Shown: positions 11 to 35,665, counted from the first letter of the stretch. The stretch is DNA of 64,000 nucleotides from Candidatus Levybacteria bacterium RIFCSPHIGHO2_01_FULL_36_15b (GCA_001782045.1 MFNK01000003.1:101905-165904), one strand, 5' to 3'. The notes: generated from the letters alone by a model not told the origin. Numbers and translations are program-made.

Positions 11-502
11 TTAAGAAAAATGAGTGGGTCTGCTGGTTGGCATCTGAAATGTGTGCGTAACCCTTCCTTGGGTTTTATCGACGTTTTTCAGCTTTTTTCT
101 ATATTCTAAAAGATCTTTTCTTGTCTTTACACCTGCTTCGAGCATATTAAAAAGAACCTGGTATCCCGTTTCCATGGTTGCTTTTGATGTATTTCTTGAG
201 CCCTTTTGAAGTATAACCTGTGCTTGTTTTTTAATTACACCCCATTGTTCTAACCATCTTGTCCGATTCCATTTTCCGTTACAATTGGAAATAGTATACG
301 CTCCCATTAAGCTTAACGCCTGTATTGCATTATTTTGTTTTTTTTCTTTGAAATTTCTAAAAGTTGCATAACTATTCAATGCTTCTTGGCTCATTTGTTG
401 AAGACTTTCAGGCTGAATATCTTTTAAGGGAACAAGACAGCTTCTGCTTACTTCTCCCACGTATTTAAATGGAGTTGATATTTTCTCTTTCACGAATTGC
501 AA
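11..502 (-). CDS. hypothetical protein (163 aa)
   Basis: Intact ORF from six-frame track; no recognisable motif; Lys/Gln-rich soluble protein. Confidence 0.4.
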   Translation of the reverse strand: MQFVKEKISTPFKYVGEVSRSCLVPLKDIQPESLQQMSQEALNSYATFRNFKEKKQNNAIQALSLMGAYTISNCNGKWNRTRWLEQWGVIKKQAQVILQKGSRNTSKATMETGYQVLFNMLEAGVKTRKDLLEYRKKLKNVDKTQGRVTHTFQMPTSRPTHFS

Positions 503-572: not shown

Positions 573-1028
573 GTGATTAATATAGAGCGACAAACAGACG
601 GAATTCAACATGAAGCTGAGTTTAGCAGAAAGCTAAGCTTATTGTTTGGTCACATAAAAGAGGAAGCAAAAAACGGCCTAAAAAATTATGGCCAATTCTA
701 TCCTGGAGAAGTTGGAAGTCCGACTTTTAGATACGAATTCGACGAAGATACAAATGAGGCGGTTTTTGAAATAGAACAGAATGATTCGTTCTTTGCAGAA
801 GTAAGAAGGTATTTTATAAGTGATACCTCTATAAGAAAAGAAGGACACAGAGATGGTCCCGGAAGGTTTATTAAATATACAAAAGAAGAATATGATCTGG
901 AAGAGGGCGAGTTCAAAGCAGAACCTCTACAAGTAGGTTTACGCGAGTTAGACATATTGGCCAAATTAGTTCTTTCGCCTCTGGAAAATTATCAAGAGCT
1001 TGAATCACTTCGTCATTTGCCTTATTAA
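573..1028 (+). CDS. hypothetical protein (151 aa)
   Basis: Intact ORF, acidic, no recognisable motif. Confidence 0.4.
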   Translation: MINIERQTDGIQHEAEFSRKLSLLFGHIKEEAKNGLKNYGQFYPGEVGSPTFRYEFDEDTNEAVFEIEQNDSFFAEVRRYFISDTSIRKEGHRDGPGRFIKYTKEEYDLEEGEFKAEPLQVGLRELDILAKLVLSPLENYQELESLRHLPY

Positions 1029-1672
1029 AGCTCCAAAAATAAATTTTCTAATCCAAGGCGCAAGTTTACATTAGATTGTTTTATTTCCTTATAATATTGG
1101 TTTAAAACCTCAATCATTTTTTTATACTCCCCTGTTTCTTTCCCAGCTACCATTTTTTCTCTTATAAAAACTATAAACTTTTCTAAAAAGACTAGAGCAT
1201 CGTTTTTTTCTTTAGAAAAATCTTGTGCAAGTTTTAGCCTAAAACCTACATCGTTCATCCTTAAATTCTCAAGTATTTCAGAATAGTTTTTTTCATCGTC
1301 TTTTGTAATTTCTACTCCCCTATCCAGCTCTACTAATTTTGCTCTGGAGTTAATTGTTGGAAGAAAAGAGTTTTCAGAAGCCAGAATAAAAATATAAGTA
1401 GAAAGGGGCGGCTCTTCCAAAATTTTTAGAAATGCATTTTGAGCCTCTGTTGTTGCACCCAAAAATGCCTCTACTACTACTATTTTTTTGTCTCCTTTTA
1501 TGGGCTTTAAAAAAATTTTTGAAGACAAGTTTTTTACATCCGCAATGCCTAATGCTTTTTCGGTTTCCAGAGTATAAATATCAAAATCCGTAACCTTTTC
1601 TTTTTTCGCAAAATCTAAAACGTATTCTTTTGCCTTACCTTTGTCTTTGGAAATTATCAAAAAACTTTGCAT
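1025..1672 (-). CDS. holB: DNA polymerase III delta-prime-like clamp-loader subunit, short form
   Basis: Motif NAFLKILEEPP (the conserved LKxLEEPP box of HolB/DnaX clamp-loader subunits); only 215 aa, no Walker A seen. Confidence 0.6.
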   Translation of the reverse strand: MQSFLIISKDKGKAKEYVLDFAKKEKVTDFDIYTLETEKALGIADVKNLSSKIFLKPIKGDKKIVVVEAFLGATTEAQNAFLKILEEPPLSTYIFILASENSFLPTINSRAKLVELDRGVEITKDDEKNYSEILENLRMNDVGFRLKLAQDFSKEKNDALVFLEKFIVFIREKMVAGKETGEYKKMIEVLNQYYKEIKQSNVNLRLGLENLFLEL

Positions 1673-3477
1673 TACTTAAAATGGGCGATTATCACAGTTC
1701 TGTCGTCAGTATAACTTTCTAAGGTGGAGCCTTTTGTAGATGGGAATTCTCCTATTTTATCAGGATCAACTTCTTCCACATATCTAAACGCTTCTTCCCA
1801 AGATTCTATTGTGGGCTTGTCTGCAATTTTAAAATAACCATCGGAAAATACTTCAAGAAGTCCAACGTCTTTCAGGTCATAAGTAAAAGTTCTCACAAAT
1901 TGTTCCGGGACTTTCCTTCCATCCATTGCTCCAAAGCCTAATTCTTCTTGAGGATTATTCTGCAGTCTTGCTACCTGATTGTTTAATACATCAACTATCT
2001 CTTCTCTACCCTGTTTTAAAAGTTCGTCGCGTTCAATATCTGGATTTTCGGATTTGATTCTTTCAATGGTTTCTTTTCTTTTTTTAGAATTAATATTGTC
2101 TACCTCTTTAGAATCTTGGTGTACAGCCAATCTGTTGATTCTAAAACTTACATCCCCAACTTGTGTAATTACTATTTTATCTTCAATAATTTTTGCTGCT
2201 ACGAACGAGGAAGTAGGCCGTGCTTCTGGAGAGTTTTCAATAGAAGAGAAATAGCCGTCAGACGTAAAAGACCTTTCCATATATCGGCTTACAAAATCTA
2301 CTAATTCTTGCCCTGTCAAGTTCTTAGCTTCGGCGCTAGTAAGTGCTTCTGAGACAAGCTTTGCCGCATATTGTCCCCCCGACTCCTGTCCAAATGATAA
2401 GTTTCCTTTTGGCGTAGCACCATCTATAACAGCAATCAAATAATCTTTTGCAAGCCACATGTCCTCATTCTTAGATGGATCGTTTTTTGCTTTTCCTTTC
2501 GAAAGAGCTTCAACGTTAAATTTTTCAAATTCCCTTTTTTCTATATCACCTCTTTCCCCCAAATTCGAAATTCTTTCAGAGGCTCTTTTATTCAATTTAG
2601 CAAGCTGTTCGCTATCCAGGGTTTTATATTTTTCTTCTCTTTTTTCTAACCTCTCATTTATCCACCTGAACCACTCTTCCCCAAATTTTTCTCTTCCGTA
2701 TAAGGCCAGCGCCGAGGCTCCACTTGGGCTAGGTGAAAAAGCCCACCATAGTATTGCATGTTCGATATCCTCTTTTGTGTCAGGTATAAACTTAATATTT
2801 ATTTCTCTATCCGTTGCCCGCGATCTGATTTGATCTGCCGAAAGATTTGTCTCTGCAAAAAATATCATGCTTGGATTATTTGCTGCCTTGTTATATATAA
2901 TTCCTGAGGCCTTAATATCTGTCAGTTCATTAGTTTCAATTCCAGCCTCTTCCGTCAGTTCCCTTTTTACTGTAGCAAAGGGATCCCAATTGTCCTCTCC
3001 TCTTAAATCAGTTGAAAAATTTGGTTGACCACCTGGTACGCTTAACGCTCCTGGTTTTGTTGCCGCATCTAAGCCGCGTTGCGCGACAATCAACTGTCCA
3101 TCAGCTGTCTTAACTAATACATTAGTCCCTAAAACTCTTGGGGCATACTCTGCGTATCTTGCTCTTAAGTCTTTGTTTTGCATGGCTATATGATCTTTAT
3201 ATGAAGAAGAGGCGAGCTCTATATTTAATTTACCGTCGACCACGTTTACGCCTTTTAAGGATAATTGTGGTTCGGCTTTCAGTGGTGTTTTGCCTTCCGA
3301 AACCCTTTTGCTATTTGTTTCTTCCCAAATACTTTCAGTTTCCTCTATTAATTCTTTAGGTTTGGTTGTATTGAGACTTAATCTGGCTGAAATATCCCCT
3401 TCACCAAATTTGCCTGATGCAAGAATATCAAAGTAAGGATTTGAAATCTCTATTTCTCCGCTTTCAACAGCTTCCAT
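1672..3477 (-). CDS. NUDIX hydrolase / PP2C-type Ser-Thr phosphatase fusion protein (601 aa)
   Basis: Nudix box GEDNWDPFATVKRELTEEAGI (Gx5Ex7REuxEExGu) near residue 160. C-terminal third has PPM-like motifs AVIDGATPKG, VGDVSFR, FSDGY and terminal DDRTVIIAHF (resembles PP2C DDITVIVV ending). Confidence 0.6.
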   Translation of the reverse strand: MEAVESGEIEISNPYFDILASGKFGEGDISARLSLNTTKPKELIEETESIWEETNSKRVSEGKTPLKAEPQLSLKGVNVVDGKLNIELASSSYKDHIAMQNKDLRARYAEYAPRVLGTNVLVKTADGQLIVAQRGLDAATKPGALSVPGGQPNFSTDLRGEDNWDPFATVKRELTEEAGIETNELTDIKASGIIYNKAANNPSMIFFAETNLSADQIRSRATDREINIKFIPDTKEDIEHAILWWAFSPSPSGASALALYGREKFGEEWFRWINERLEKREEKYKTLDSEQLAKLNKRASERISNLGERGDIEKREFEKFNVEALSKGKAKNDPSKNEDMWLAKDYLIAVIDGATPKGNLSFGQESGGQYAAKLVSEALTSAEAKNLTGQELVDFVSRYMERSFTSDGYFSSIENSPEARPTSSFVAAKIIEDKIVITQVGDVSFRINRLAVHQDSKEVDNINSKKRKETIERIKSENPDIERDELLKQGREEIVDVLNNQVARLQNNPQEELGFGAMDGRKVPEQFVRTFTYDLKDVGLLEVFSDGYFKIADKPTIESWEEAFRYVEEVDPDKIGEFPSTKGSTLESYTDDRTVIIAHFK

Positions 3478-3481
3478 AATG

Positions 3482-3511
3482 TTGACATTATATCGTAAAT
3501 TCCCCTACTAT
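3482..3511 (+). promoter_or_regulatory. candidate sigma70-like promoter for pilB (TTGACA-18-TACTAT), would give a leaderless or near-leaderless transcript
   Basis: TTGACA at 3482-3487, TACTAT at 3506-3511, ATG at 3519. Confidence 0.25.
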
Positions 3512-3518
3512 TATAGTA

Positions 3519-35285: not shown

Positions 35286-35358
35286 GCTGAGATAGCCAAG
35301 GTGGTCAAGGCACCTGTCTGAAGAACAGGCTATGTGTGTTCGACTCACACTCTCAGCA
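35286..35358 (+). tRNA. tRNA-Phe (anticodon GAA); no CCA
   Basis: GCTGAGA/TCTCAGC acceptor, loop CTGAAGA, T-arm GTGTG-TTCGACT-CACAC. Confidence 0.85.
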
Positions 35359-35386
35359 CAATTCGACAAGCTTAGTACAAGCACTT

Positions 35387-35469
35387 GCGGATGTGGTGAA
35401 ATGGTATACACGCAGCCTTGAGGTGGCTGTGCCGTAAAAAGCGTGGAGGTTCGAGTCCTCTCATCCGCA
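35387..35469 (+). tRNA. tRNA-Leu (anticodon GAG), long variable arm; no CCA
   Basis: GCGGATG/CATCCGC acceptor, loop TTGAGGT, variable arm TGCCGTAAAAAGCGTG. Confidence 0.85.
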
Positions 35470-35480
35470 CAAATTACCTT

Positions 35481-35552
35481 GGGTACTTAGCTCAGTGGTA
35501 GAGCGCTTCGTTTACATCGAAGATGTCGGGGGTTCAAGTCCCTCAGTACCCA
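35481..35552 (+). tRNA. tRNA-Val (anticodon TAC); no CCA
   Basis: GGGTACT/AGTACCC acceptor, loop TTTACAT. Confidence 0.85.
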
Positions 35553-35580
35553 CATATTAGGCACGCTCAGCGTAAACAAA

Positions 35581-35664
35581 GCCCAGGTGGCGAAACCGGC
35601 AGACGCGCAGCGTTCAGAACGCTGTGTCCGCAAGGACTTGGGAGTTCGAATCTCCCCTTGGGCA
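35581..35664 (+). tRNA. tRNA-Leu (anticodon CAG), long variable arm; no CCA
   Basis: GCCCAGG acceptor, loop TTCAGAA, T-arm GGGAG-TTCGAAT-CTCCC. Confidence 0.85.
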
Positions 35665-35665
35665 C

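What the first reader, a model, noticed from the sequence alone, without database searches (positions are those of the whole stretch)
1672..3477. NUDIX hydrolase fused to a PP2C-type phosphatase
A single 601-aa ORF carries a clear Nudix box (GEDNWDPFATVKRELTEEAGI) in its first third and PPM/PP2C-like motifs in its last third, including the terminal DDRTVIIAHF. Nudix domains sense or hydrolyse nucleotide diphosphates (for example ADP-ribose, Ap4A, capped RNA). PP2C domains dephosphorylate Ser/Thr. A covalent fusion would couple a nucleotide signal to protein dephosphorylation in a genome that otherwise looks very reduced. I do not recognise this architecture as a described family. It sits next to a minimal HolB and divergent to the pilus operon.
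Basis: partly seen in the sequence, partly recalled or inferred. Interest (0 to 1): 0.6.

Follow-up and report, generated by a model that had tools for sequence, protein, structure and literature searches.

The report
NUDT22-type Nudix fused to atypical PP2C
One intact 601-residue gene in a likely candidate-phyla-radiation bacterium joins a NUDT22-like nucleotide-sugar pyrophosphatase to an unusual PP2C-fold phosphatase; this pairing is very rare and unreported in the papers checked, and it most likely makes a two-step phosphate-removing enzyme rather than a signalling switch.

Summary
Window 1672-3477 (-) is one uninterrupted 601-aa ORF, and a second assembly of the same strain has the same gene.

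- **N-terminal half (aa 1-307):** a two-subdomain NUDT22-type Nudix hydrolase. Family profile vs human NUDT22 gives E=1e-20, and the model matches at TM ~0.7. The RE..EE catalytic core is kept.
- **Pfam:** the query itself falls just below both Pfam cut-offs. Its relatives pass them.
- **Rarity:** among 1.84 billion representative proteins only one other fused protein was found, and it has the opposite domain order. One alphaproteobacterium has the two genes overlapping.
- **Context of the stand-alone PP2C-like genes:** RefSeq copies checked are named "hypothetical protein". 52 of 80 genome loci place it in an ABC-importer operon. Six members carry an N-terminal region that weakly resembles HD phosphohydrolases. 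No kinase motif occurs in the window.

My best reading is a tandem small-molecule phosphohydrolase for salvage of nucleotide-linked compounds (confidence ~0.4). Substrates are inferred, not shown.

The parts
1672..3477 (-). Whole fusion gene, 601 codons plus stop
   Evidence: ORF list; same intact gene in second assembly L106
3148..3444 (-). N-terminal beta-rich subdomain of the NUDT22-type module (aa ~12-110)
   Evidence: AF2 model pLDDT 92.6; family profile aligns to NUDT22 from profile position 25; Foldseek alignment to NUDT22 spans ~295 columns
2692..3147 (-). Nudix-fold subdomain (aa ~111-262), including invariant G150 and the conserved SPSPSG motif (aa 248-253)
   Evidence: Pfam NUDIX aa 115-190; phmmer to NUDT22 aa 111-262; family conservation
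2938..2964 (-). Nudix catalytic helix RELTEEAGI (aa 172-180); R172, E173 and E176 near-invariant, E177 invariant in the family
2557..2691 (-). C-terminal helices of the Nudix-type module (aa ~263-307), also present in stand-alone relatives
2542..2565 (-). Short junction (aa ~305-312); stand-alone N-half proteins end here and stand-alone C-half proteins begin here
   Evidence: alignments; match ranges
1675..2541 (-). PPM/PP2C-fold phosphatase module (aa 313-601)
2461..2472 (-). PP2C motif I equivalent, KNED (aa 336-339; E338 and D339 near-invariant)
   Evidence: (aligned to KNED of Stp1)
2413..2430 (-). PP2C motif II equivalent, VIDGAT (aa 350-355; D352 invariant, G353 near-invariant)
   Evidence: (aligned to DGMGG of Stp1)
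1963..2106 (-). Family-specific long helical hairpin (aa ~458-505). R467 is invariant within it; the invariant N507 lies just after it.
   Evidence: secondary structure of the model, H153-172 and H178-200 in C-half numbering; invariant columns R162 and N202
1834..1848 (-). PP2C motif VIII equivalent, FSDGY (aa 544-548; D546 and G547 invariant)
1696..1710 (-). PP2C motif XI equivalent, TDDRT (aa 590-594; D591 and D592 near-invariant)
1025..1672 (-). holB-like gene (DNA_pol3_delta2, 215 aa). Its ATG overlaps the fusion gene's TAA (TAATG), so it is probably co-transcribed and translationally coupled.

Best explanation
The gene encodes a cytoplasmic bifunctional phosphohydrolase made of two catalytically competent modules joined end to end. 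Step 1: the NUDT22-type Nudix module cleaves the pyrophosphate bond of a nucleoside-diphosphate-linked compound. By analogy with human NUDT22 this would be a UDP-hexose giving UMP plus hexose-1-phosphate. Step 2: the fused PPM/PP2C-fold module, a metal-dependent phosphomonoesterase of an uncharacterised PP2C_2 subfamily, removes a phosphate from one of the products or from a related phospho-metabolite. The net effect would be to turn nucleotide-linked compounds into nucleoside or sugar plus phosphate for salvage, in an organism with little biosynthetic capacity. Shown here: the two folds, retention of both catalytic residue sets, the intact fusion, and its recurrence in the opposite order. Inferred: the substrates, the order of the steps, and that the PP2C-like module acts on a small molecule rather than a protein.
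Against: To my knowledge every characterised PPM-fold enzyme acts on a protein substrate: phospho-Ser/Thr, or AMP/phosphocholine adducts for SidD/Lem3 (descriptions). A small-molecule PPM would be unprecedented. The ABC-operon association comes from a distant clade (~26% identity) and is absent from the CPR loci. The HD assignment is weak (E 0.001-0.01). Fusion or adjacency is rare: 2 fused clusters and 1 adjacent pair, while the 79 other genome loci have no NUDT22-type gene in the flanks. NUDT22 identity is only ~21%, so substrate transfer is uncertain. No full-length model was obtained, so nothing is known about how the two active sites are arranged.
Confidence: 0.4

Rival explanations
1. 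The PP2C module is a genuine Ser/Thr protein phosphatase, and the Nudix module binds or hydrolyses a nucleotide that regulates it, or shares its target pathway. A nucleotide signal would thereby be coupled to protein dephosphorylation.
For: PPM fold with a complete metal-binding motif set. The closest solved structures are all protein phosphatases: RsbX, PstP, tPphA, PppA, Stp1. To my knowledge all known PPM enzymes act on proteins.
Against: No kinase motif in 64 kb. No kinase next to any of the relatives examined, which instead show ABC-importer, HAD or HD-like associations. The Nudix module keeps its catalytic residues, so it is not a degenerate sensor. Either domain order is tolerated with almost no linker, which is unusual for an allosteric sensor-effector pair (my inference).
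Confidence: 0.25
2. The pair trims a nucleotide-containing modification from a macromolecule. One example is a UDP-sugar or other non-canonical RNA 5' cap: Nudix decapping followed by 5'-phosphate removal. Another is a nucleotidylated or phosphoribosylated protein residue, in the manner of the PPM-fold enzymes SidD and Lem3.
Against: There is only one context example. The SidD and Lem3 matches are no better than those to ordinary PP2Cs. Nothing in the window points to RNA processing next to the gene.
Confidence: 0.12
3. The fusion is incidental. Two unrelated enzymes that happened to be neighbours were joined by loss of a stop codon and work independently.
For: Fusion is very rare: 2 clusters at 90% identity and one other among 1.84 billion representatives. 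Most relatives of either half are stand-alone and unlinked.
Against: The same two uncommon families are joined in both orders in related lineages and overlap as separate genes in an alphaproteobacterium. That is hard to ascribe to chance among thousands of gene families.
Confidence: 0.15
4. Artefact: an assembly chimera or an undetected frameshift joined two separate genes.
For: None found.
Against: The ORF is continuous. A separate assembly from another sample has an identical reading frame. P0002 was recovered intact on 5 contigs from different runs. The junction coincides with the natural ends of stand-alone homologs.
Confidence: 0.01

Closest known systems
Human NUDT22 (UDP-glucose/UDP-galactose pyrophosphatase; PDB 5LF9, 5LOR, 5LOU)
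   Same: Same two-subdomain architecture (N-terminal beta-rich domain plus Nudix fold). Same loop insertion between the box glycine and the catalytic helix. Family profile E=1e-20; TM 0.65-0.73 over ~295 aligned columns.
   Different: Only ~21% identity. The bacterial family keeps a canonical REUxEExGU helix where NUDT22 has QEICDEVNL. It has extra C-terminal helices. Here it is fused to a phosphatase. Substrate untested.
Bacterial PPM/PP2C Ser/Thr phosphatases (RsbX 3W40, PstP 1TXO, tPphA 5ITI, PppA 6JKV, Stp1 6IHR; Pfam PP2C_2 PF13672)
   Different: 15-19% identity. A ~50-residue helical hairpin carries the invariant R467, with the invariant N507 just after it. Extra conserved DP and TK motifs. 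The motif-I arginine is not at its canonical place. No kinase partner was found. Relatives associate with an ABC importer and an HD-like domain.
P0002 (611 aa, metagenomic; the only other fused protein found)
   Same: The same two modules: 51% identity in the PP2C-like half and 40% in the Nudix half.
   Different: Opposite domain order (PP2C-like first). Different neighbours: a His_Phos_1 gene and enolase. Its Nudix half groups with a different stand-alone protein than the query's does.
Lacibacterium aquatile locus L039 (SBP > PP2C-like > NUDT22-like genes)
   Same: The same two families next to each other on one strand, overlapping by ~38 nt.
   Different: Separate genes, ~25-27% identity to the query, and part of a PhnS2/T2/U2-like ABC importer cluster.
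PPM-fold hydrolases of non-phosphate adducts: SidD (deAMPylase) and Lem3 (phosphocholine hydrolase)
   Different: No closer than ordinary PP2Cs. Both still act on protein substrates.

Membership tests
Nudix superfamily (Pfam PF00293) | Score at or above Pfam's gathering cut-off (21.1 bits) | tested here: not met
   Query 20.3 bits, E=5.8e-4. Relatives pass: P0002 23.0, P0057 27.8, L039 26.9.
Nudix superfamily (Pfam PF00293) | Nudix fold | tested here: met
   The model (pLDDT 92.6) matches many Nudix structures, with NUDT22 best.
Nudix superfamily (Pfam PF00293) | Nudix box GX5EX7REUXEEXGU | tested here: inconclusive
   REUxEExGU is present (R172, E173, L174, E176, E177, G179, I180). The spacing to the box glycine (G150) is stretched by a loop, and the E at box position 7 cannot be placed. 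NUDT22 shows the same pattern.
NUDT22-type Nudix hydrolases | Two-subdomain architecture (N-terminal domain plus Nudix domain) alignable over the whole protein | tested here: met
   Profile E=1e-20 over profile positions 25-261. Foldseek E=4e-18, TM ~0.7, ~295 columns; the next Nudix proteins reach only TMq ~0.3.
NUDT22-type Nudix hydrolases | UDP-glucose/UDP-galactose pyrophosphatase activity | not testable with these tools
   The activity is known for the human enzyme only (PMC10101856). I could not access the paper listing the substrate-binding residues.
PPM/PP2C phosphatases (Pfam PP2C_2 PF13672) | Score at or above Pfam's gathering cut-off (24 bits) | tested here: not met
   Query 17.3 bits whole protein and 19.9 bits as C-half alone. 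31/49 family members match at E<=0.01, best 7.6e-9. P0054 (30.7) and L039 (29.0) pass the cut-off.
PPM/PP2C phosphatases (Pfam PP2C_2 PF13672) | PPM fold (central beta-sandwich flanked by helices) | tested here: met
PPM/PP2C phosphatases (Pfam PP2C_2 PF13672) | Acidic metal-binding residues of motifs I, II, VIII and XI | tested here: met
   E338/D339, D352, D546 and D591/D592 are invariant or >=90% conserved in 49 sequences. Motifs I and II align to those of Stp1.
PPM/PP2C phosphatases (Pfam PP2C_2 PF13672) | Phosphate-binding arginine of motif I (RxxNED) | tested here: not met
   In the profile alignment to Stp1 the Arg column holds a non-basic consensus residue. The family instead conserves a Lys further upstream (GK...NED) and an invariant Arg in the inserted hairpin. 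This rests on a sequence alignment only.
Bacterial Ser/Thr kinase-phosphatase pairs | Hanks-type kinase encoded nearby or in the genome | tested here: not met
   No HRDxKxxN motif in any ORF of the 64-kb window, and none among the neighbours examined in related loci. The rest of the genome is not available.
Bacterial Ser/Thr kinase-phosphatase pairs | Phosphoprotein substrate | not testable with these tools
   Needs biochemistry.
Anti-phage defence systems (PADLOC) | Match to a defence-system protein model | tested here: not met
   No hit for the query; only a weak hit (E=0.0047) for P0002.

The most novel reading that the evidence does not exclude
The PP2C-like module belongs to a PPM subfamily that acts on small phosphorylated metabolites rather than proteins. 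Here it works in tandem with a NUDT22-like pyrophosphatase as a two-step salvage enzyme for nucleotide-sugars or other NDP-X compounds. In Alphaproteobacteria the stand-alone form would process a solute brought in by a PhnS2/T2/U2-like ABC importer. To my knowledge that would be the first metabolite-directed PPM-fold phosphatase, and the first function assigned to bacterial NUDT22 homologs.
Probability: 0.3. Interest if true: 0.75.

Novelty: new variant of a known kind. Interest (0 to 1): 0.55.

Why it matters
Both halves belong to sizeable but uncharacterised bacterial families: 1,202 representatives match one half or the other, and the RefSeq copies checked are 'hypothetical'. The fusion acts as a Rosetta-stone link between them. 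It gives a concrete, testable hypothesis for each: a bacterial counterpart of NUDT22, and a PP2C-fold enzyme whose contexts (ABC importer operons, a weakly HD-like fused domain and a Nudix partner, no kinases) point away from classical protein dephosphorylation. If the PPM module acts on metabolites, the known chemistry of a superfamily treated as exclusively protein-directed would widen. It would also add a salvage route relevant to how reduced CPR bacteria scavenge nucleotides and sugars. If it is an ordinary protein phosphatase, the finding is simply a rare domain combination.

Tried and rejected
- **NCBIfam and PADLOC on the query:** only sub-threshold MutT-type hits and no defence hits.
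- **Word-indexed homolog search on the whole protein:** returned only the protein itself and P0002. The exhaustive HMMER search was needed.
- **Combined full-length alignment A4, meant for a full-length model:** MAFFT misplaced the N-half homologs (9-19% identity), so I discarded it.
- **Metagenome scans:** the A6 scan found nothing. A DNA pattern for WWAFSPSPSG gave 16 loci, of which only one (L090) is a real relative, and it is stand-alone.
- **AlphaFold-DB fold search:** library unavailable.
- **NUDT22 structure paper:** not held, so substrate-binding residues could not be compared.
- **Contexts of the closest stand-alone homologs:** mostly short contigs with no recurring partner.
- **Regex scan for Nudix boxes near stand-alone PP2C-like genes:** no enrichment. 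The regex is strict and misses divergent boxes, including L039's.
- **Promoter/terminator scan around the gene:** no more sites than in shuffled sequence.
- **L106 as evidence of purifying selection:** rejected, because it is the same strain.
- **Literature search for Nudix + PP2C + fusion:** only unrelated plant and human papers.

Full report
**1. The observation**

Window 1672..3477 (minus strand) holds one ORF of 601 codons with an ATG start and no internal stop. A contig from a different sample (L106) carries the same gene and the same downstream holB. It is 99.95% identical over 4,038 nt and differs only at codon 251. That makes it the same strain. It rules out an assembly or frameshift artefact but says nothing about selection.

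The start codon fits the homologs, which also begin M-E...NP[YF]F. The stop overlaps the ATG of a 215-aa DNA_pol3_delta2 (holB-like) gene as TAATG. A PilB/PilT/PilC operon runs divergently after only 41 bp.

**2. N-terminal half**

Alone, the query scores just below Pfam's NUDIX cut-off (20.3 vs 21.1 bits). Its best solved relative by sequence is human NUDT22 (E=4e-4).

An exhaustive HMMER search of 1.84 billion representatives found 1,202 relatives of one half or the other. An alignment of 36 N-half relatives (A2) conserves G150, R172, E173, E176 and E177. Its profile hits NUDT22 at E=1e-20 across nearly the whole chain.

The AlphaFold model (pLDDT 92.6, pTM 0.89) has NUDT22 as its six best PDB matches (E 4e-18 to 1e-16, TM 0.65-0.73, ~295 columns). 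Other Nudix proteins match only the core (TMq ~0.3).

So this is a NUDT22-type two-subdomain Nudix hydrolase. Like NUDT22, it has a loop inserted into the first part of the Nudix box. Unlike NUDT22, it keeps a canonical REUxEExGU helix. NUDT22 converts UDP-glucose to UMP and glucose-1-phosphate (PMC10101856).

**3. C-terminal half**

The query is again sub-threshold in Pfam (PP2C_2 17.3 bits vs 24). An alignment of 49 relatives (A1) shows invariant or near-invariant E338/D339 (NED), D352-G353 (DG), D546-G547 (SDG) and D591/D592 (DDR). It also shows family-specific invariant residues R467, N507 and D571 (numbers converted to the full-length protein).

31 of the 49 members match PP2C_2, best E=7.6e-9. 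The profile finds Stp1 and PstP at E~1e-3, with NED and DG aligned to their motifs I and II.

The fold and metal site are therefore PP2C. Two features are unusual. There is a ~50-residue helical hairpin (aa ~458-505). The canonical motif-I arginine is also absent from its usual column.

**4. How common is the fusion?**

Among the best 150 of the 1,202 hits, only P0002 (611 aa) contains both modules, and it has them in the opposite order: PP2C-like aa 13-301 (51% identity) and Nudix-like aa 304-607 (40% identity), joined by about three residues. P0002 was recovered intact on five contigs.

All other hits are stand-alone proteins of ~250-340 aa, or carry other partners:

- Six PP2C-like members have an N-terminal region with H...HD motifs. 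Pfam HD matches only one of them weakly (P0065, E=0.001, below cut-off), and a profile gives weak PDB matches to YfbR/OxsA-type proteins, E 0.008-2.
- NUDT22-like members are fused to AAA_33 P-loop kinase domains (P0057, P0086) or to a GNAT domain (P0119).

In 80 genome loci holding PP2C-like relatives, one (Lacibacterium aquatile, L039) has a NUDT22-type gene overlapping the 3' end of the PP2C-like gene. No general enrichment of Nudix genes nearby was seen.

Rough NJ trees, without bootstrap support, put the two fused C-halves as sisters. The two N-halves each pair with different stand-alone proteins inside one subclade. This fits joins in related lineages but does not prove independent fusions. 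Both junctions coincide with the natural termini of the stand-alone proteins.

**5. Context clues to function**

The nearest relatives of the PP2C-like half are in Daviesbacteria, Levybacteria and Saccharibacteria MAGs. That fits a CPR/Patescibacteria origin for the window; this is my inference and I did not test it with marker genes.

A distant clade (~26% identity) is widespread in Alphaproteobacteria. There, 52 of the 80 loci place the gene next to or inside an ABC importer operon, in at least three arrangements:

- SBP > PP2C-like, with the ATPase and permease genes divergent.
- SBP > ATPase > permease > PP2C-like.
- SBP > PP2C-like > ATPase > permease.

The transporter is most like the putative 2-aminoethylphosphonate PhnS2/T2/U2 system but scores below the equivalog cut-offs. 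These PP2C-like proteins have no signal peptide, and the RefSeq entries I looked up are named 'hypothetical protein'.

No Hanks-kinase motif is present in the 64-kb window, and no kinase appeared among the neighbours examined. CPR loci show no recurring partner. One (L007) has a HAD hydrolase and a small canonical Nudix gene nearby. One stand-alone NUDT22-like gene sits between rpsO and pnp.

**6. Interpretation**

Shown:

- Two folded modules, each with a complete catalytic residue set, in one polypeptide.
- A recurring link between these two uncommon families.
- A PP2C-like subfamily whose associations are with transport and phosphohydrolase functions rather than kinases.

Inferred: the pair acts in sequence on a nucleotide-linked small molecule, with pyrophosphate cleavage followed by phosphomonoester hydrolysis. 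I put this at about 0.4.

The main counter-argument is that, to my knowledge, all characterised PPM enzymes act on proteins. A macromolecule-trimming role (RNA cap or protein adduct) gets about 0.12, an incidental fusion about 0.15, and an artefact about 0.01.

**7. Novelty**

A literature search for Nudix + PP2C + fusion found nothing relevant. A 2025 survey of 57,520 PF13672 proteins lists zf-ribbon, DZR, Pkinase, PASTA and SpoIIE as partners and does not mention Nudix in its main text.

I rate this a new variant of known kinds: a new architecture built from two known folds, each from an uncharacterised subfamily. Interest is moderate at 0.55. It would be higher if the PPM module proves to be metabolite-directed.

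Noticed in passing
L013-L082 (e.g. L039 2094-7038; L040 2160-7008; L051; L022): In Alphaproteobacteria (Devosia, Bosea, Microvirga, Aureimonas, Geminicoccaceae and others) the stand-alone PP2C-like 'hypothetical protein' is embedded in a PhnS2/T2/U2-like ABC importer operon. This holds in 52 of 80 loci and in at least three gene orders. It is an unreported, strongly conserved association for a PPM-fold protein.
   Followed up: partly
P0023, P0024, P0044, P0054, P0065, P0090 (proteins): The PP2C-like module is fused to an N-terminal ~230-380-aa region with H...HD motifs. It weakly resembles YfbR/OxsA-type HD nucleotide phosphohydrolases (Pfam HD E=0.001 in one member; PDB profile hits E 0.008-2).
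   Followed up: partly
P0057, P0086, P0119 (proteins): The NUDT22-like module is fused to an N-terminal AAA_33 P-loop kinase domain (two proteins) or to a C-terminal GNAT acetyltransferase (one protein).
   Followed up: partly
L110 6001-6957 (552-kb groundwater contig): A stand-alone NUDT22-like gene is inserted between rpsO (S15) and pnp (PNPase) in a nusA-infB-...-rpsO-pnp string. This is a possible link to RNA turnover or to the NDPs that PNPase produces.
   Followed up: no
window 2725-2727 (codon 251) vs L106: The only difference between the window gene and the second assembly is CCA>AAA (P251K), two adjacent base changes inside the family's conserved SPSPSG motif.
   Followed up: no
window 1670-1674 and 3478-3518: The fusion gene's stop overlaps the holB start (TAATG). 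In many bacteria the slot upstream of holB holds tmk (own knowledge, untested here). The divergent spacer to pilB is only 41 bp and contains TTGACA-18-TACTAT on the + strand. No Shine-Dalgarno-like sequence is evident before the fusion gene's ATG.
   Followed up: partly
window 31001-63103: 17 tRNA genes lie in the second half of the window, including a run of four (Phe, Leu, Val, Leu) at 35286-35665.
   Followed up: no
window 11-502 (-) and 573-1028 (+): Two ORFs (163 and 151 aa) flanking holB have no Pfam match. The 151-aa ORF is also called in the second assembly L106.
   Followed up: no
L007 5971-7887 (Daviesbacteria MAG): The closest named-genome stand-alone PP2C-like gene has a convergent HAD-family hydrolase overlapping its 3' end. 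A small canonical NUDIX gene lies ~570 nt downstream on the same strand.
   Followed up: no
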